DNA of 64,000 bases. Source: Alphaproteobacteria bacterium. Lineage in GTDB: Bacteria > Pseudomonadota > Alphaproteobacteria > RF32 > CAG-239. The position numbers were made by a program, and so were the translations under genes. The notes below the pieces were generated by a model, which saw only the letters and a program-made list of their open reading frames with translations, was not told the origin of the DNA and ran no database searches. The stretch lies in assembly GCA_017470165.1 (NCBI GenBank), contig JAFUEX010000024.1, positions 75,398-139,397 on the forward strand, read 5' to 3'. Each line of letters opens with the position of its first letter. Position 1 is the first letter of the stretch. Below are positions 5,490-37,942 of this stretch, in pieces.

Positions 5490-5566
5490 CGCGGGGTGGA
5501 GCAGTTAGTTAGCTCGCTGGTTTCATACTCCAGAGGTCGATGGTGCAAATCCATCTCCCGCAACCA
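5490..5566 (+). tRNA. tRNA-Met (anticodon CAT), initiator-like, encoded by the phage.
   Basis: 77 nt beginning CGCGGGGTGGAGCAG and ending TCCCGCAACCA, similar to E. coli tRNA-fMet. It has a C1:A72 mismatch, a TTCATAC anticodon loop, a perfect T-arm and an encoded CCA. Confidence 0.8.
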
Positions 5567-5660: not shown

Positions 5661-5745
5661 AGGACTGTAGCTCAATGGTAGAGCGTTCTGTGTGCACAGA
5701 TTAAACCGAGCAGTTTGTATGTGGGTTCGACTCCCGCCGGTCCGA
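5661..5745 (+). ncRNA. tRNA-like sequence with a non-canonical anticodon arm; possibly a tRNA pseudogene or decoy.
   Basis: Acceptor, D-arm (GCTC-AATGGTA-GAGC) and T-arm (GTGGG-TTCGACT-CCCGC) are canonical. The anticodon region is a perfect 14-nt palindrome (TCTGTGTGCACAGA), which gives a 4-nt loop. A long hairpin-forming variable region follows. Confidence 0.45.
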
Positions 5746-5883
5746 CCTATTACTTATGTCTGAGAGAACGCCGGTCGGATCGGCTTAAGACAAAACAGCT
5801 TAACCGAAAAGATTGGCAAGGAACACCGGATGGTTGCAAACGTCTGGTGTTTTCTTTTTGACTTTCAAGAAGAACGTGCTCCT

Positions 5884-30147: not shown

Positions 30148-31164
30148 ATGAAAAAAACAGCAGAATTTGTGTCATTAGGGCATCCGGATAAAACAGCGGA
30201 TTTTATTTCGAGTTATGTGCTTGACCGTTTAATTGAGCAGGATCCTCACGTAAAATATGCGGTTGAGGTCATGGTTAAAGATAACGAGGTTATTTTGGGC
30301 GGTGAAGTCAAGGGTAACGTTGAGTTCTCTCTAGCCACCCTTCAAACTTGGATTTATGATGCCTTGGCAAAAATAGGCTATACCGAGGACTATTCAAAGC
30401 GGTGGGGTGTCAATGCCATCAATCCCTTAAAGGTTAACGTCACGAATTTAATCGGTAAACAGTCAGGAGATATCAACCAAGGCGTTGAAGCTGACGGCTG
30501 GGGTGATCAAGGTGTCTTTGTTGGCTACGCTTGCAAAAGTGAAGGCAAAGTCAGCCGAGAGCTCTTCCTTGCGCGTAAATTAAACCACGCTCTCTATGAA
30601 ATGGCCAAAACGAGCGAAAATTTTGGAATTGATATTAAAACGCAAATAACAATGAATGACATCGGCGGTGTCGAAACGGCGATTGTTGCGATTCCCATGC
30701 TCAAAGAGATTGATCTGCGCGACTTTGTCACTTCTGTTCTTGGCGAGGAGCCGGAGAATATCATTATAAACGGGACTGGTCGTTATGTTATGCATTCTTC
30801 TATTGCTGATTGCGGGGTTACCGGTCGTAAGCTCGCTTGCGACTTCTATTCTACAACTTGCGCCGTCGGTGGTGGTTCGCCATGGACAAAGGACGCCAGC
30901 AAGGCAGACGTTTCATTGAATATCCTTGCTCGCAAATTGGCTGTTGAAAATTTAGACGGTGCGCATGAATGCTGGGTTTATCTTTCTTCGTGCATTGGTC
31001 GCGCCGATTTGCCGTCCGTTGAGGTTGTTCGCAAGACTGGCATGGCGATCGGCTATAGAGATGTCAAGATTGGCAAACCGTCAGAAATTATCGAGGAGCT
31101 TGGGTTGAATAAGCCGGTATTCGCCGACTTGTGTGCTCGTGGTATTACCGAGGTTTATAAATAA
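30148..31164 (+). CDS. S-adenosylmethionine synthetase-like protein (short MetK).
   Basis: The N-terminal GHPDKTADFISSYVLD matches the MetK GHPDK signature. 338 aa against ~384 aa for bacterial MetK. Confidence 0.55.
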   Translation: MKKTAEFVSLGHPDKTADFISSYVLDRLIEQDPHVKYAVEVMVKDNEVILGGEVKGNVEFSLATLQTWIYDALAKIGYTEDYSKRWGVNAINPLKVNVTNLIGKQSGDINQGVEADGWGDQGVFVGYACKSEGKVSRELFLARKLNHALYEMAKTSENFGIDIKTQITMNDIGGVETAIVAIPMLKEIDLRDFVTSVLGEEPENIIINGTGRYVMHSSIADCGVTGRKLACDFYSTTCAVGGGSPWTKDASKADVSLNILARKLAVENLDGAHECWVYLSSCIGRADLPSVEVVRKTGMAIGYRDVKIGKPSEIIEELGLNKPVFADLCARGITEVYK

Positions 31165-32515: not shown

Positions 32516-33593
32516 GATTAATGAATAAGAGCAATTTTATTTTTCATAGAGGGGCTGAGTTTTCACAAAGCCCCTTTTTCCGTTCTAAAGAAAAGAGGAC
32601 TCCCTAGGAGTTTTATACGGTCTTTAAGAAAGGGATTTATCAATGGCAACATTCGAAGACGGCGAAAAAGTAAGAATTAACAAACAATATCAGGAAATTG
32701 TTCGGAAAATTCCACTTTCAGCACCTTTGGATTTAAGGCGGGCGGTTGAAGTTGCCGCTCGGATTATTTTCTGTATCTGACTTTCCAACTACCTTGACTG
32801 TTCAGATGGCAGATAGCGCAAGAAAGTATCTTTGAACTGAGATTTTTATATCTGCACTTATCCGCTAGTCAACTGAAAAGGTCAGTCCGTTTGCCGATAC
32901 TTTAGCTTTTTTTCTCTTTCTTTGAAATAATTTTCAATATATTCACTTACCTGTTCGTTTTTTTCATCAACTGAAAAATACATACCGCCACAGGTATCGT
33001 GAAAATGAAGTTCGATTCCAAAATTTTCTTTTATTTTCTTCTTTAGATCTATAACAATATTTAACATATTTTCTACTGCCTGTTAAAATATATTTTTGTA
33101 TTATAATATAATTTATTTATTTTTTTCTATTATATTTTTTAGGGAAGAGCATGAAAAGATTTTAATTTTGAACAAACTAAAATTATCATTAAAAAAATCA
33201 ACATGTTAATTCGGTATAATTTTCCTTTTTTGTTAGTCTTGCACAACCAGTAAAATCAAGGCTTTCAGAGTTTTCTGGAAGCCTTTAATTTTTGCCAGTG
33301 CTACGCAGGTGCTACACCATTTTTTGGAAATTTAGTCTTGGTTCGGTTGCTTAAAAGCGATTAAAAATCCCCGATTTCCCTTGTGAATAAAAAATGTTAA
33401 AGAAGTCTCATTCTTTAACATTTTCTCTGGAATTGCCTAAAATACTATAGTTTTGAAAATGGCTAAAATACCGAATATAAAAAATGTTAAACTTTGTTCG
33501 GATTACAAACATTATTTAACATTCATACAATACTTTCACATTGACTTTTGAAATGCAAAAATTAATATTAATTTCAATATGACGAGGTAACAC

Positions 33594-34670
33594 ATGAAAA
33601 AATTTGTTTTGATTTCTAGTTTGTTAATAGCTTTTAGTATCAATGTTTGGGCTAATGAAACTAAAAATTCGGCTTGGGAGGGTCTTTGGGATTATCAAAG
33701 ATATGCAGTAAATCCCTCCGGCGTTTTAGAAATAACTGATTGTCAAAATAATTTGTGCCATTTTAGTATTAATACTGCCAATGGGGCACATACTTGTATG
33801 CTTGAAGGAAAATTAAAAACAAGTGCTTATAAAGCTGAATATAGGGAAAAAATAGAAACAGCAGAAGGTAAGTATGATGATATCGTTATTACATTTGAAC
33901 TGAATCCCGATAAAAACTTTATAGAGATAGATGCAAATTATGCTTCTCGTATGTATTGCGGTATGCAAGGATATTTTATTGGCAAATATGAAAATCAAAA
34001 CAATCCGCTACGTTATGATACTGGTTTTGATTGCTGGGCAAAAGATTTAACAGATACACAAAAAATTATTTGCGCTGAAGAAGAATTAGCTCGTGCTGAT
34101 AAAGAGATGACTGAAAATTATCAATCCGAACAAACAAACGAATGGTATAATAAACGGGAAATTTGCCATAATGATAAAAGATGTCTGTGGGAATTTTATA
34201 TTTCTTCCATAAAGTCCGCTTATGAGAAGAAAAATAACAAATCTGTTAATTTCTATGAATACATGGGTAATTTGTCAGATGATACCCCATATTATCCGAC
34301 AGATTTTTCTTTACTTTATGATTTTTTCATCAAAAATATGCAAAACAAAGATTTTGAACAGTGGAAAGTTGCTTTTTCTCAAATTTCTATGGACAATAGT
34401 AAATGTAATCAATGTCGTTACCATGAATATGGTTTGCCTGGTTTATATACCATTGCGGAATCAGCTTTTTATATCAACAAAAATGAAATATGGCTTGCTT
34501 TTTTACACATTGATAATGATACAAATAAAAAGCATATAGTGATATATGCTATGCCTGATAGGGAAGAAAAAGATATTCCTGCTGAATTTGACAACTGGCT
34601 GGATCGCTTAAAAGAACATTTTCCTGATGGAATTAAACTAAAGTATTTTACCGACACAAAAAATAAGTGA
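33594..34670 (+). CDS. Secreted DUF1311 (LprI-like) domain protein.
   Basis: Signal peptide. The DTQKIICAEEELARADKEMTENYQ motif is typical of the DUF1311/LprI N-terminal domain. Very AT-rich. Confidence 0.45.
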   Translation: MKKFVLISSLLIAFSINVWANETKNSAWEGLWDYQRYAVNPSGVLEITDCQNNLCHFSINTANGAHTCMLEGKLKTSAYKAEYREKIETAEGKYDDIVITFELNPDKNFIEIDANYASRMYCGMQGYFIGKYENQNNPLRYDTGFDCWAKDLTDTQKIICAEEELARADKEMTENYQSEQTNEWYNKREICHNDKRCLWEFYISSIKSAYEKKNNKSVNFYEYMGNLSDDTPYYPTDFSLLYDFFIKNMQNKDFEQWKVAFSQISMDNSKCNQCRYHEYGLPGLYTIAESAFYINKNEIWLAFLHIDNDTNKKHIVIYAMPDREEKDIPAEFDNWLDRLKEHFPDGIKLKYFTDTKNK

Positions 34671-34915
34671 ATGATATCGTTTTTTATTAATACATTTAAT
34701 GACTTTTAAAAGATATCATTCACTTTAATATTAAGGATATTTTCTCAATAATTCCAGAGCTTTTGCATTTTCAAGAGTAAATCGGTTGTTAGTAATGTTA
34801 TTTCTGTAGGATGCTGAGCTATTTCTGAAATTATTGGGATTTCCTCTTTCAGTTTGGTAACGGTTTCTGATTCGGAGTTTATGTTTTTGCATAGGGTGTC
34901 TTTATATTGATTGCA

Positions 34916-35482
34916 CTAAGATTTTGATTGTTTGGCTTCGGACTCGTTTTGGGTTTGGGCTGCTTCCTTATCAGCAGTTTGTGACTGCGCTTTGCTCTCT
35001 TCTGCCTGAAGTTTTTCATACTCTTCTTCAGTAATCTCTTGGGGGAGATTTTTGTTGACTTCATTGACGGTGCTGTTCTGCGATGTGCCGTCAACTTTCA
35101 AAGTGTCACCGAATTCGCTTGCGCTGATGCCGGTCGGCTTGAAGGCTACTTGTGCTGAGAGGTTGGTTTGACTGCGGTCGGTAAAATAGTCAATCAACAT
35201 TCCCATCCAAGAGATGAGAAACAGGCCGATAGCCAAAGAGCCAAACCATTTCCAGTTGATTTTGCCCCAGATACAGCCCCAGGCCAGACCGACCAAGCCG
35301 AATCCGCCCAAACAATAGGCAATGTATTTGAACTCGTTGATGGCAGTGGCGGCGCGGGAACGAATCGTAAAGAGGATGGAGGCCTCAGCCGATGTGATGC
35401 AGACGCCCAAGGCCAGCAGAATTACGCAGAATACCAAGCATAAGCGGCGGAAGTCGAGGGAAAAAGAAAATAGTTTGGTCAT
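34916..35482 (-). CDS. VirB2/TrbC-like pilin paralog.
   Basis: AGGAGG ribosome-binding site. Hydrophobic leader plus GGFGLVGLAWGCIWGKINWKWFGSLAIGLFLISW, shared with the two neighbouring paralogs. Confidence 0.55.
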   Translation of the reverse strand: MTKLFSFSLDFRRLCLVFCVILLALGVCITSAEASILFTIRSRAATAINEFKYIAYCLGGFGLVGLAWGCIWGKINWKWFGSLAIGLFLISWMGMLIDYFTDRSQTNLSAQVAFKPTGISASEFGDTLKVDGTSQNSTVNEVNKNLPQEITEEEYEKLQAEESKAQSQTADKEAAQTQNESEAKQSKS

Positions 35483-35492
35483 GGTGTCCTCC

Positions 35493-35948
35493 TTAGCGTA
35501 GGCTGCGGGCGTTGGATTTTTTGAGGGTGTCTTCCCAATTTTTTTCGTTGGGGGCATATTTGGTCATATCACCGCTGAGAGAGTCTTCTTTGTCGTTACC
35601 GGCTTGGGATAGAGTGTTGGAAACACCGAAAGTTTTGCCGCCGGTCATTAACTGGACAATGCCGCCGGCAGTGGCCATAACTACCAGCGAGATGAGGATG
35701 GCACCCAGCCATTTCCAATTGAGGTTGCCAAAGATGCCTCCGACGCCGACGGCAACAATGCCGAATCCGGCGACGATGTAAATCAAATCGCGCAATTCAG
35801 AGAATATTTTAAGACCACTGGCGACCAAGGCAGAGAAGAGGCCGGAACCGCCGGTGGAGGTGTCGGCGGCAAAGGCCAAGGCCGGCAGCAGACACAAGCA
35901 CAAGGCCGGCAGCAAAATCAATCGGGTAGGAAACTTTTTACTTGGCAT
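35493..35948 (-). CDS. VirB2/TrbC-like pilin paralog.
   Basis: Signal peptide plus AGFGIVAVGVGGIFGNLNWKWLGAILISLVVMATAGGIV. Confidence 0.55.
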   Translation of the reverse strand: MPSKKFPTRLILLPALCLCLLPALAFAADTSTGGSGLFSALVASGLKIFSELRDLIYIVAGFGIVAVGVGGIFGNLNWKWLGAILISLVVMATAGGIVQLMTGGKTFGVSNTLSQAGNDKEDSLSGDMTKYAPNEKNWEDTLKKSNARSLR

Positions 35949-36143
35949 TGTAGTTCTCCGCTTGCGGTTAATGGTTTTTTGGTTCAGTGACTATCAGGCT
36001 ATTGCATTGTTGGTGTTTTTTTGTGTGGGGGACCACGTTTGTCCTTTCGTTTTCTTTCGTCTTTCCTTTAGCGTGACAGGAAAGGGGGTGTCCGCTCAGG
36101 GGGCGGTGCCTTGTGGTCATGGGATGCCTTATTCGCCGCTTAA

Positions 36144-36244
36144 GCGGCTCAGGCATGACAGGACAAGAGAGGCGGCTCAGGCATGACAGGACAAGAGAGG
36201 CGGCTCAGGCATGACAGGACAAGAGAGGTCGCTCAGGCATGACA
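36144..36244. repeat. 28-bp tandem repeat (gcggctcaggcatgacaggacaagagag) x3.3 within a repeat-dense intergenic tract.
   Basis: Three exact units plus a partial fourth. Related dispersed copies lie at 36070-36110 and 36630-36710. Inverted tgtcaccgctgagcg copies lie at 36255-36330. Confidence 0.85.
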
Positions 36245-36860
36245 TTCTATTATTGTCACCGCTGAGCGAGGAACGAGCGAATAAGCGATCTCTTTTTTTA
36301 TGTCACCGCTGAGTGCCGCAAGGCACGAATAAGCGGTCGCATGAGCCTAAAAACGTTTCTTTTTACGTTACTTTTGTACGCACAAAAGTAACCAAAAAGC
36401 GTCGGGCTATTCGCCGCGGGGCGGTTTTTTTCAAGGCATAGGGCTGCGACCTACTTACACGCGACCAGAAAGCGCGTGACGAGGTCGCAAAAGGATGACC
36501 ATCGCCAGCCTTGAGAAAAAGCCGCTGTTTCCCGCTTTGCTCATCAAGCCCGAAGCTAAAGGTTTTTTTGTTGTCACTGTGCCTTGTGACGATGAGACCC
36601 CTGATTTTTCTGCGGTGCATACCGCAGAAAAAGGGGTGACAGGACAAGAGAGGCGGCTCAGGGGTGACAAGAAAGGGGGTGTCCGCTCAGGGGTGACAGG
36701 ATGGGAAAAAACACTGGATAGTGCAATAGTATAATAGTTACAATAATTTAACTCAGGTGGTTTTGAGTTTGCTGATATCTCCTGAGGATGAAGGGGATAT
36801 GGGTAAGCTCAAAGAGGGGTGGTAGAGGGGAGGGCGAACCCTCCCCAATGGATATATGAC

Positions 36861-37238
36861 CTAGTTCTCACCAAAGCTATAAGTATCACCCATACCACCC
36901 GTATTAGTAAGGCTTTGGTTGCCTGTACCCTGACCTGTGGTATTTGTGGTGGCGTATTCAACAATAGCACCGGCAGCTGCCAAGATACCCAAACCGACGG
37001 CTAAGGCGGCAAACCATTTCCAGTTGATTTTGCCGAAGATAGCGGCGAAGGCGATACCTACCAAACCGAAACCGCCGACGATGTAGATGATGGTGCGCAC
37101 GGCCTTAAAAGCCTCCAAGGCCTTACCTGCAGCAATTCCCATCACGGAAGCGGCGGCGGCAGCTTGTTCAATCAAGCCGAACATAGCGGCAAACATTACG
37201 ATCCCGAATGTCCAAATGTTTTTGCGAATAAAGTTCAT
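36861..37238 (-). CDS. VirB2/TrbC-like pilin paralog.
   Basis: GGFGLVGIAFAAIFGKINWKWFAALAVGLGILAAAGAIV matches the other two paralogs. Confidence 0.55.
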   Translation of the reverse strand: MNFIRKNIWTFGIVMFAAMFGLIEQAAAAASVMGIAAGKALEAFKAVRTIIYIVGGFGLVGIAFAAIFGKINWKWFAALAVGLGILAAAGAIVEYATTNTTGQGTGNQSLTNTGGMGDTYSFGEN

Positions 37239-37390
37239 ATCAGTTCTCCTTTTTTAAATTTTGCAAAACTTAACTTACAATTATATTGTAACGCATTCTG
37301 GAAGATTTTACCAGTGAAAATGTTTTTAGCACAAAAAGGTTAAGATATTGTTTATGGGGAGAAAATTTTGCTGTAACAAAAAATTCATCT

Positions 37391-37942
37391 TTAGCGGCCG
37401 CGGGTGGAGGTGCGCTCGAGGTCTTGGGCAAGCAGGCGCTGGCGTATGAGCTCGTATTCTTTGGCGCGGCGCTGGCGCTCTTTTTGCTCGGCAGGGGTTT
37501 CGCGATGGTTAGCCTTGGCGGCGCGCAAGGCGATGAGCTTGTTGAGCAGAGCTTTTTGCGAGAGGCCTTGGGTGGCCTCGGTGAGAAAAGAGGTGATGTT
37601 GGCCGGGGTGAGCAGCGCCTCGATATCGACCGAAGAGAGCAGAGAATCGCGGGCGATGATTTGGTTGAGCTCGACATTGAGCGCTTCTTCCCAATCGGTG
37701 TCGTCATCATCGTCGAGGCCGGAGGAGATGATTTTGAGCAGGGATTCCTTGAACAATTTGTTGACCAATTTGAGAAAATTGCGAGGGGTTACCGTGCCGT
37801 TGGCCGAGGCGCGCATCAGGGCAAACAACAGCAGATTTTTGACATATTTTTTCTGGAGGGACGAGAGCTTGAGGTTGCCGCGGATGCCGGCTTTGGCGGC
37901 GGCGAGGACAGTGTTGCGTTCGGCGGTGAAATTATAGGCCAT
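37391..37942 (-). CDS. Hypothetical protein.
   Basis: GC-rich ORF with a coherent frame. Several overlapping opposite-strand ORFs are judged spurious. Confidence 0.4.
   Translation of the reverse strand: MAYNFTAERNTVLAAAKAGIRGNLKLSSLQKKYVKNLLLFALMRASANGTVTPRNFLKLVNKLFKESLLKIISSGLDDDDDTDWEEALNVELNQIIARDSLLSSVDIEALLTPANITSFLTEATQGLSQKALLNKLIALRAAKANHRETPAEQKERQRRAKEYELIRQRLLAQDLERTSTRGR

What the first reader, a model, noticed from the sequence alone, without database searches (positions are those of the whole stretch)
35950..36860. Repeat-dense 900-bp non-coding tract between pilin paralogs: a 28-bp tandem repeat x3 plus dispersed and inverted copies.
The unit gcggctcaggcatgacaggacaagagag is repeated three times exactly (36144-36227) with a partial fourth.

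Related gctcagg(g/c)gtgacagga units recur at 36070-36110 and 36630-36710. Inverted tgtcaccgctgagcg copies lie at 36255-36330. A perfect hairpin tctgcggtgcataccgcaga lies at 36609-36628.

The unit is too short and contiguous to be a CRISPR array. It could mediate recombination among pilin paralogs, encode a structured RNA, or be a binding array.

A GGTGACAGG motif also appears upstream of the island gene at 47578.
Basis: seen in the sequence. Interest (0 to 1): 0.55.

Follow-up and report, generated by a model that had tools for sequence, protein, structure and literature searches.

The report
Hairpin-repeat mosaic inserted between pilin genes
The 900-bp gap between two secretion-system pilin genes of an uncultured rumen alphaproteobacterium is a lineage-specific insertion built from one small hairpin-forming repeat module, tandem copies of half that module whose number appears to vary between assemblies, and a conserved core; it looks like a new family of REP/MITE-type repeats rather than a new kind of system.

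Summary
A 28-bp unit repeated 3.6 times lies at 36144-36244, and related direct and inverted copies occur only in this tract of the 64-kb window.

The tract is non-coding. It is an insertion of about 760-800 bp: six related species have only 111-135 nt between the same two virB2 pilin genes.

It is a mosaic of three parts:
- Four copies, in both orientations, of a two-tier hairpin "X module" of about 50 nt. The loops and flanks are conserved and the stems covary (93.5% paired, 8 of 11 pairs with double changes).
- Tandem "half-modules". The 28-mer array is the 3' arm of module X1 plus an 11-nt linker.
- A core of about 190 nt with further hairpins.

Imperfect 36-nt inverted repeats bound the whole segment.

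Unit number differs between assemblies (2, 3, at least 4), and assemblies break inside the tract. A second arrangement of the element (L141) and a junction to a flagellin gene (L135) exist in the same population. Modules also lie just upstream of pilin1 in three related species.

Best reading: a new REP/BIME- or MITE-like structured repeat family that amplified locally and is prone to recombination. An effect on pilin2/3 expression is probable but unproven. It is not a CRISPR array, not a common genome-wide REP, and matches no known RNA family.

The parts
35987..36021 (.). Left arm of the outer imperfect inverted repeat that bounds the inserted segment
   Evidence: Local alignment with the reverse complement of 36706-36741 gives 27 of 36 matches. 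Only 4 of 2000 shuffles score as high. It lies about 25 nt inside the point where homology with relatives' pilin1-pilin2 spacer is lost.
36073..36102 (+). Half-module units of the X3 type (right arm AGGGGT); direct repeat of 36664-36693
   Evidence: 30 nt, 97% identical.
36111..36166 (+). X module copy X1: outer stem ATGCCT/AGGCAT, loop TATTCG, inner stem-loop GCCGC-TTAA-GCGGC, CTC, TGACA
   Evidence: Covariance model R1 scores 66.8 bits, E 4e-15. Fold; covariation.
36144..36244 (+). Tandem array, 28 nt x 3.6. Each unit is the 3' half of X1 (GCGG-CTC-AGGCAT-GACA) plus the 11-nt linker GGACAAGAGAG. Copy number appears to vary between assemblies.
   Evidence: TRF score 188, 97% matches. L137 has 2 full units, the window has 3, L139 has at least 4. 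The units carry the same right-arm variant as the adjacent X1 (sequence).
36248..36294 (-). X module copy R1, with the non-pairing inner segment CTCGTTCCTCG. This variant is also found in L135 and L150.
   Evidence: R1 model 47 bits. Same inner sequence in L150:1-30 and L135.
36295..36350 (-). X module copy R2: outer stem ACCGCT/AGCGGT, inner stem GTGCC-GCAA-GGCAC as read on the + strand
   Evidence: R1 model 63.6 bits. Fold -25.4 kcal/mol, z -3.9.
36365..36556 (.). Core shared with other copies. It contains hairpin 36365-36392, a terminator-like GC stem plus T7 on the + strand at 36412-36431, and the long two-tier hairpin 36445-36489.
   Evidence: It is near-identical in L141 and L135. It is about 70% identical and collinear in L149:1-110, a species whose pilin is 80% identical, with an A-U to G-C compensatory change in the inner stem. 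Folds have z -2.9 and -4.0. Terminator scan.
36584..36647 (+). X module copy X3: outer stem ACCCCT/AGGGGT.
   Evidence: R1 model 51.8 bits. Fold -35.5 kcal/mol, z -5.6.
36653..36705 (+). Two half-module units after X3, carrying X3's right-arm variant AGGGGT
   Evidence: Two analogous units end the L141 copy.
36706..36741 (.). Right arm of the outer imperfect inverted repeat. It contains a TATAAT at 36730-36735 on the + strand.
   Evidence: Promoter-like scan.
36774..36846 (-). Ancestral pilin1-pilin2 spacer retained on the pilin1 side: the conserved hairpin GGGGAGGGTTCGCCCTCCCC (36827-36846) and a second hairpin (36774-36800)
   Evidence: Present after pilin1 in L127, L131, L149 and L150, and as a variant in L147 and L148.
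35493..35948 (-). VirB2/TrbC pilin paralog 2 (151 aa), now separated from pilin1 by the insertion
   Evidence: Pfam PF04956, E 4.6e-07. Paralogy shown.
36861..37238 (-). VirB2/TrbC pilin paralog 1 (125 aa)
   Evidence: Pfam PF04956. 892 homologues in gut and rumen Alphaproteobacteria.

Best explanation
The tract is a lineage-specific insertion of about 760 bp (35987-36741). It is made of a previously undescribed family of structured intergenic repeats, of the general kind represented by REP/BIME/REPIN elements and MITEs.

The basic unit, the 'X module', is a two-tier hairpin of about 50 nt: (C)RTGRGA-[N4]CT-TAYTCG-[variable inner stem-loop]-CTC-AG[N4']-TGACA. Its unpaired motifs are conserved and both stems covary. 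This pattern implies that the element is recognised or selected in folded, single-stranded form, as DNA or as RNA.

The tract holds four X modules: two pointing each way, with X1 and its array facing R1 head-to-head. It also holds a core of about 190 nt with more hairpins, and runs of 'half-modules'. The conspicuous 28-bp array is a local tandem duplication of the 3' arm of X1 plus its linker. It most likely arose by replication slippage or unequal exchange, which would also explain why the unit number differs between assemblies.

Paralogous copies elsewhere in the species' genome recombine with this one. That gives structural polymorphism and causes assemblies to break here.

The functional consequence is inferred, not shown. 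The insertion uncouples pilin2 and pilin3 from the pilin1 promoter and places stable stem-loops in any read-through transcript. It therefore probably lowers or alters expression of the downstream pilin paralogs, as REP/BIME elements do within E. coli operons (established knowledge, recalled rather than tested here).

Shown: the anatomy, the covariation, the insertion status, the other copies, and the differences in copy number between assemblies. Inferred: the mobility mechanism, the slippage origin, and the effect on expression.
For: Insertion status:
- Six relatives have pilin1-pilin2 spacers of 111-135 nt, against 912 nt here.
- Homology to those spacers is kept on both sides of the segment bounded by the outer inverted repeat. 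That inverted repeat has p of about 0.002.

Module structure:
- An alignment of 10 module copies from 5 sources is 93.5% paired. Eight of 11 pairs have double changes. The covariation score is 0.61 against 0.20 in shuffles (0 of 500 reach it), and slid controls are at most 46% paired.
- Covariance model hits score 44-69 bits, against at most 20 bits in 725 kb of unrelated DNA.

Half-module origin of the array:
- Array units carry X1's right-arm variant AGGCAT. The units after X3 carry X3's variant AGGGGT.

Copy-number differences:
- 2, 3 and at least 4 full units in different assemblies.

Other copies and recombination:
- L141 is a 504-nt contig with the same core and modules in a different order.
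- In L135 the segment 36250-36442 is about 10% divergent and is joined to the 3' end of a flagellin gene, while the sequence from 36443 rightwards is identical to the window up to 36916. The flagellin identity is confirmed by PF00700 homologues.
- Contig ends fall at 36173, 36443, 36561, 36615, 36683 and 36726.

No alternative identity:
- No Rfam family.
- No match in plasmid or phage collections.
- No coding signal.
Against: - No transposase or RAYT gene is present in the window, and the rest of the genome could not be searched.
- No clean target-site duplication was found. The only candidate is a 7-nt TGGTTTT lying 15-16 nt outside each outer inverted-repeat arm.
- Density is low: there is no copy in the other 63 kb of the window or in the roughly 9 kb beyond it. 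This is unlike classical REPs.
- In relatives, every module found lies within 300 nt upstream of pilin1 (L131, L149, L150). That could mean a locus-specific function rather than selfish spread.
- Only 2-3 independent copies of the whole element were recovered.
- The copy-number evidence rests on short-read assemblies. L137 and L139 may derive from one sample, because L004 and L005, from the same two assemblies, are identical.
Confidence: 0.6

Rival explanations
1. The X module and core are a conserved, functional cis-element or small RNA locus that belongs to the virB2 pilin region of this clade. It might be a protein-recognised stem-loop controlling pilin mRNA stability, processing or termination. 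On this reading the tract is a rearranged and amplified version of that element, not selfish DNA.
For: - Modules sit about 200-250 nt upstream of the pilin1 start codon in L131, L149 and L150, and a degenerate trace sits there in L127. They all face the same way relative to the pilin.
- No module occurs elsewhere in about 65 kb of relatives' loci or in about 73 kb of this genome.
- Stems covary between species while the unpaired motifs stay fixed.
- The core hairpin shows a compensatory change between species.
- A terminator-like stem with a T-run at 36412-36431 could end a + strand transcript of about 370 nt.
Against: - The window species lacks the module upstream of pilin1. L147 and L148 have none at all. 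So the element is dispensable for pilin1.
- The order and orientation of modules differ in every copy, which is mosaic behaviour typical of repeats.
- One copy is next to a flagellin gene.
- No convincing promoter was found.
- Both strands fold equally well, z -4.8 and -5.1.
- Sampling is biased, because all relatives' loci were fetched through the pilin gene.
Confidence: 0.2
2. The segment is an invertible, phase-variable DNA switch (an 'inverton'). On this reading, the 36-nt outer inverted repeats, or the inner TGACA/TGTCA pairs, are recombinase sites, and flipping turns pilin2 and pilin3 expression on or off.
For: - A segment of about 755 bp bounded by inverted repeats lies directly upstream of a surface-filament gene in a gut bacterium.
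- A perfect TATAAT lies inside the right arm.
Against: - Every contig that enters the tract from either side, from several samples, shows the same orientation.
- The outer inverted repeat is only 75% matched.
- No recombinase gene lies nearby.
Confidence: 0.05
3. The repeats are protein-binding or nicking sites linked to the type IV secretion system, such as oriT or T-DNA-border-like direct repeats. Alternatively, they are GGA-rich decoy sites of a CsrB-like sponge RNA.
For: - CATCCTG|T on the minus strand at 36696-36703 matches the MOBP/VirD2 nick consensus YATCCTG|Y. That consensus is recalled from memory, not tested here.
- The 30-nt direct repeats 36073/36664 flank about 590 bp.
- The + strand units contain ACAGGA motifs.
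Against: - Neither motif is conserved in the modules of L131, L149, L150 or L141.
- An 8-mer match in 1.8 kb of two-strand sequence is expected about 0.1 times by chance.
- No relaxase or CsrA gene is in view.
Confidence: 0.03
4. The tract is decayed remnant DNA with no element identity, for example an eroded gene or prophage scar that happens to contain a slippage-generated repeat.
For: No homologue was found in any database searched.
Against: - Ten module copies keep a covarying hairpin.
- The core is conserved across species.
- Paralogous near-identical copies exist.
Confidence: 0.05

Closest known systems
REP / BIME / REPIN elements of proteobacteria (mobilised by RAYT Y1 transposases)
   Same: - Short imperfect palindromes in intergenic DNA downstream of genes.
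- Copies in alternating orientation combined with linker motifs into mosaics.
- Head-to-head doublets: X1 and its array facing R1, with TGACA-9 nt-TGTCA at the junction.
- The structure is selected, with compensatory changes.
- Known to affect mRNA stability and to promote rearrangements.
   Different: - Very low density: none in about 73 kb outside the tract.
- The stems are highly variable while the loops are conserved, whereas REP stems are usually conserved within a genome.
- No GTAG-type 5' motif and no RAYT gene were seen.
- A 190-nt core and tandem half-modules are not REP features.
MITEs such as Correia/NEMIS, RPE and ERIC-like elements
   Same: - A non-coding insertion of a few hundred bp bounded by inverted repeats. 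The inner pair TGTCACCGCTGAGCG / CGCTCAGGGGTGACA is 14 of 15 complementary and 415 nt apart; an outer 36-nt pair bounds the whole segment.
- The insertion is present in one lineage and absent from relatives.
- Several paralogous copies exist.
- It is inserted within an operon.
   Different: - No clear target-site duplication.
- No cognate IS identified.
- Copies differ in module order instead of being collinear.
Intergenic VNTRs / minisatellites of bacteria (MLVA loci)
   Same: - A perfect 28-bp tandem unit whose number differs between assemblies (2, 3, at least 4).
- Non-coding location.
   Different: Here the unit is recognisably half of a hairpin module, and similar half-units recur at two other places in the tract and in L141.
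Integron attC sites and IS200/IS605 (PATE) ends
   Same: Conserved unpaired bases with freely covarying stems, which implies recognition of a folded single strand.
   Different: - No R''/R' AAC/GTT boxes.
- No integrase or TnpA gene.
- No cassette organisation.

Membership tests
CRISPR array | Repeats of 23-50 nt separated by unique spacers of similar length | tested here: not met
   The units are contiguous, with period 28 equal to the unit length. There are no spacers.
Tandem repeat / VNTR | Head-to-tail copies whose number differs between isolates | tested here: met
   TRF reports 3.6 copies at 97%. L137 has 2 full units and L139 has at least 4. Caveat: these are short-read assemblies and may come from one sample.
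REP/BIME | Imperfect palindrome with a conserved structure | tested here: met
   Two-tier hairpin, 93.5% paired, 8 of 11 pairs with double changes.
REP/BIME | Tens to hundreds of copies dispersed over the genome's intergenic regions | tested here: inconclusive
   There are 0 copies outside the tract in 64 kb plus about 9 kb. At least one further arrangement (L141) and a flagellin-linked junction (L135) exist.
REP/BIME | Cognate RAYT (Y1 transposase) gene in the genome | not testable with these tools
   None is in the window.
MITE | Terminal inverted repeats | tested here: met
   The outer pair has 27 of 36 matches, p about 0.002. The inner pair 36254-36268 / 36684-36698 is 93% complementary.
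MITE | Target-site duplication flanking the element | tested here: not met
   No direct repeat abuts the inverted repeats. The only candidate is TGGTTTT, 15-16 nt outside each arm.
MITE | Empty site in related genomes | tested here: met
   Six relatives have 111-135-nt spacers with conserved flanking hairpins.
Known RNA family (Rfam) | Match at or above the gathering score | tested here: not met
   No match over the tract. The best E-values are 1.1-3.6, far below the gathering scores.
Invertible promoter (inverton) | Both orientations present in the population | tested here: not met
   All contigs that enter the tract are collinear with the window. Raw reads were not available.
oriT / T-DNA border | Conserved nick motif next to an inverted repeat, plus a relaxase gene | tested here: inconclusive
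   One copy of YATCCTGY is present, but it is not conserved in the modules of relatives. No relaxase is in view.

The most novel reading that the evidence does not exclude
The X module, with the core, is a conserved structured element functionally tied to virB2 pilin genes (and perhaps flagellin genes) in a clade of gut and rumen Alphaproteobacteria. It would be a stem-loop recognised by an unknown protein to set the expression or stability of filament-subunit mRNAs. In this species it has been duplicated and expanded into a variable array that tunes the ratio of pilin paralogs.
Probability: 0.15. Interest if true: 0.55.

Novelty: new member of a known kind. Interest (0 to 1): 0.33.

Why it matters
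- It shows how a small hairpin repeat can remodel a type IV secretion pilin operon in an uncultured gut symbiont. The repeat splits the operon, creates what appears to be a variable tandem array, and provides substrates for rearrangement with a flagellin locus.
- It gives a defined covariance model for a repeat family that is absent from Rfam.
- It explains why metagenome assemblies of this organism break at this site.
- If the association with pilin genes proves functional, it would point to an unknown regulator of pilin paralog expression.

Tried and rejected
- The genome-contig scan used GCTCAGGNNTGACARGA. This pattern was too short and returned only single chance hits in unrelated phyla. 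The loci were later reused as a negative control.
- Two JGI metagenome scans for the 28-mer and for the R-module pattern gave 0 hits.
- An IMG/VR scan for the core hairpin gave 0 hits.
- blastn of the tract against plasmids and phages gave no match.
- Rfam at gathering and at permissive thresholds gave nothing credible.
- tblastn of the three pilins against the tract found no pilin remnant.
- The Prodigal-called 79-aa ORF (36495-36734) has no homologue other than itself and no Pfam hit. Its sequence diverges from L141 after about 21 codons. It was rejected as a gene.
- The 94-aa antisense ORF search found only P0242, a spurious ORF on another copy, which proved useful for retrieving L141.
- Flagellin homologues from other species (L142, L143) carry no module downstream.
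- The CsrA-sponge and oriT-nick ideas were rejected because their motifs are not conserved in other module copies.
- The motif at 47577 was rejected as chance.

Full report
**Observation.** The sequence is as described.
- Tandem Repeats Finder gives 36144-36244, period 28, 3.6 copies, 97% matches, unit GCGGCTCAGGCATGACAGGACAAGAGAG.
- The core GCTCAGSSRTGACA occurs eight times in the 64-kb window, all between 36147 and 36698. Six copies are direct and two are inverted. The expected number is 0.11.
- A 30-nt pair, 36073-36102 and 36664-36693, is 97% identical.
- The hairpin is 36605-36632, with 12-nt arms.
- The lone GGTGACAGG at 47577 is not part of the family.

**Context.**
- The flanking genes are three TrbC/VirB2 pilin paralogs on the minus strand, 30-46% identical to each other.
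- Exact look-ups place the window in an uncultured Alphaproteobacteria MAG from ruminant gastrointestinal metagenomes: GCA_017480825.1 and the XIEF21 scaffolds.
- Positions 1 to about 31 kb are a prophage. The rest is housekeeping chromosome.
- The tract contains no pilin remnant, no Rfam family and no credible ORF. It matches nothing in the plasmid, phage, IMG/VR or JGI metagenome collections.

**The tract is an insertion.**
- In six related species (pilin1 68-80% identical) the pilin1-pilin2 spacer is 111-135 nt. These are L127, L131, L147, L148, L149 and L150.
- Their spacers contain a conserved hairpin, GGGGAGGGTTCGCCCTCCCC, and a second hairpin. The window keeps both at 36827-36846 and 36774-36800. 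It also keeps the ribosome-binding region in front of pilin2.
- Between these retained parts lie about 795 nt that relatives lack.
- Just inside those limits are imperfect 36-nt inverted repeats, 35987-36021 and 36706-36741. They match at 27 of 36 positions, and 4 of 2000 shuffles score as high.

**Anatomy.**
- In 5'-3' order the module is: (C)RTGRGA, a 6-nt outer-stem arm ending in CT, the loop TAYTCG, a variable inner stem-loop, CTC, the complementary outer arm starting with AG, then TGACA.
- The window has four copies: X1 (+36111-36166), X3 (+36584-36647), R1 (-36248-36294) and R2 (-36295-36350).
- The variable 'SSR' positions of the core are simply the outer-stem arm. They covary with the left arm: ATGCCT/AGGCAT, ACCGCT/AGCGGT, ACCCCT/AGGGGT.
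- Ten copies from the window, L135, L141, L131 and L149 were aligned (A2). The two helices are 93.5% paired, against 69.8% in shuffles (0 of 500 reach the observed value).
- Eight of 11 pairs have changes on both sides, the covariation score is 0.61 against 0.20, and slid controls are at most 46% paired.
- A covariance model (R1) scores true copies at 44-69 bits. The best score in 725 kb of unrelated DNA that contains the right-arm 17-mer is 20 bits.

**The 28-bp array is half a module.**
- Each unit equals the 3' inner arm (GCGG), CTC, the outer right arm (AGGCAT), GACA and an 11-nt linker. In other words, it is the right half of X1 repeated.
- The units after X3 (36653-36705), and their near-copy at 36073-36102, carry X3's arm (AGGGGT) instead.
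- Half-units therefore always match the neighbouring full module. This points to local tandem duplication rather than independent insertion (sequence).
- The same 'module followed by two half-units' ending is seen in L141.

**Core.** Positions 36365-36556 contain:
- a 13-bp hairpin (36365-36392);
- a GC stem followed by T7 on the + strand (36412-36431);
- a two-tier hairpin (36445-36489; z -4.0).

This core is nearly identical in L135 and L141. It is collinear at about 70% identity with L149:1-110, from a different species. There the inner stem changed CACGCG/CGCGTG to CGCGCG/CGCGCG, which is a compensatory change.

**Population variation.**
- L137 has two full units, the window has three, and L139 has at least four before its contig ends.
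- L137 and L139 may come from one sample assembled twice, because L004 and L005 are identical. The claim is therefore 'more than one allele exists', not a count of samples.
- Contigs end at 36173, 36443, 36561, 36615, 36683 and 36726.
- L135, whose pilin1 is 99% identical, is collinear with the window from 38111 down to 36250. It has no differences between 36443 and 36916, but about 10% divergence plus a 6-nt indel in 36253-36442.
- Left of 36250, L135 continues into the 3' end of a flagellin gene instead of the array and pilin2.
- The NCBI contig stops exactly at 36443, next to the differing base nearest to pilin1 (36442). This is what an assembly-graph branch would give.
- L141 was retrieved through a spurious ORF. 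It carries the L135-type core flanked by other modules in a different order, and it ends in repeats on both sides.
- There are therefore at least two, and probably three, paralogous arrangements in this species. L135 looks like a recombinant between them, or a chimera formed through them.

**Distribution.**
- With filters off, model R1 finds no module elsewhere in the window.
- It finds none in about 9 kb of adjoining chromosome in L144.
- It finds none elsewhere in the relatives' loci.
- The modules it does find in relatives all lie 200-300 nt upstream of pilin1: L131:4751-4810, L149:183-235 plus an inverted one at 116-172, and L150:1-30. L150's inner segment CTCGTTCCTCG is identical to that of R1 in the window.
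- L127 has a degenerate trace. L147 and L148 have none.
- Sampling is biased towards pilin loci, so this association is a lead and not a result.

**Interpretation.** The best-supported reading is a new family of structured intergenic repeats of the REP/BIME/REPIN-MITE kind. It entered, or was rearranged into, the pilin1-pilin2 spacer in this lineage, amplified locally, and now appears to behave as a variable-copy-number array and a recombination substrate.
- Conserved unpaired motifs with freely covarying stems indicate recognition of a folded single strand. This is the logic of REP-RAYT, IS200/IS605 ends and attC sites. No cognate enzyme gene is in view.
- The likely effect, which is inferred, is polar. 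Pilin2 and pilin3 are separated from the pilin1 promoter by about 0.8 kb of stable stem-loops (z about -5 on either strand).
- Membership of REP or MITE families in the strict sense is not claimed. High copy number, a RAYT gene and a target-site duplication were not demonstrated.

**Rivals.**
- A conserved pilin-associated regulatory element or small RNA: about 0.2.
- An invertible switch: about 0.05. All contigs share one orientation.
- A T4SS nick site or a CsrA decoy: about 0.03. The motifs are not conserved in other copies.
- Meaningless decay: about 0.05. This is contradicted by the covariation.

**Verdict.** The tract is a clearly structured repeat mosaic, apparently variable in copy number, that has not been described before. 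It belongs to a familiar category, so interest is moderate to low unless the pilin association proves functional.

Noticed in passing
window 1-31000: Prophage: major capsid E, prohead protease, lambda-type portal, gpA terminase, D5-type primase, helicase, two DNA methylases and a Bro-N protein. tRNA-like genes lie at 5490-5566 and 5661-5747, and a phage-borne SAM synthetase-like gene at 30148-31164.
   Followed up: partly
window 33000-35000 and 47400-49500: Two low-GC islands (GC 0.28-0.37, against about 0.50 in the flanks). Each has one large ORF without any Pfam hit (358 aa and 566 aa). The second island starts right after tRNA-Leu at 47359-47445, which suggests an integrated element.
   Followed up: partly
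window 36774-36846 (minus strand); L127:5400-5470, L131:5378-5450, L149:845-925, L150:638-720: The ancestral pilin1-pilin2 spacer holds two conserved hairpins. One is GGGGAGGGTTCGCCCTCCCC, directly after the pilin1 stop codon. The second has arms that differ between species but stay complementary. This may be an attenuator or stabiliser that sets the pilin1:pilin2 ratio.
   Followed up: partly
window 37239-37400 (minus strand) and the upstream regions of pilin1 in L127, L131, L149, L150: About 190 nt upstream of pilin1 is strongly conserved across species. It includes GATGAATTTTTTGTTACAG and the palindromic TTTACAATATAATTGTAAA. This is probably the promoter or operator and a long leader.
   Followed up: no
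L147:2447-5156, L148:7699-9898: In more distant relatives the pilin triplet is followed directly by virB3 and virB4. In the window, pilin3 is followed by a low-GC island, an OMP gene and the prophage, so the T4SS genes are not contiguous here.
   Followed up: no
L135:1-374: The 3' end of a flagellin gene (PF00700 homologues) is joined to the right half of the tract in a strain variant. Flagellin genes of this clade are mostly recovered as fragments on very short contigs, which suggests multi-copy paralogs.
   Followed up: partly
L131:7022-7078: A module-like hairpin lies downstream of pilin3 in L131. It has the same inner stem-loop, TGCCTTACGGCA, as L135's R2 copy and ends in GGGTGACA. Model R1 did not score it, and its relationship to the family is unclear.
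   Followed up: partly
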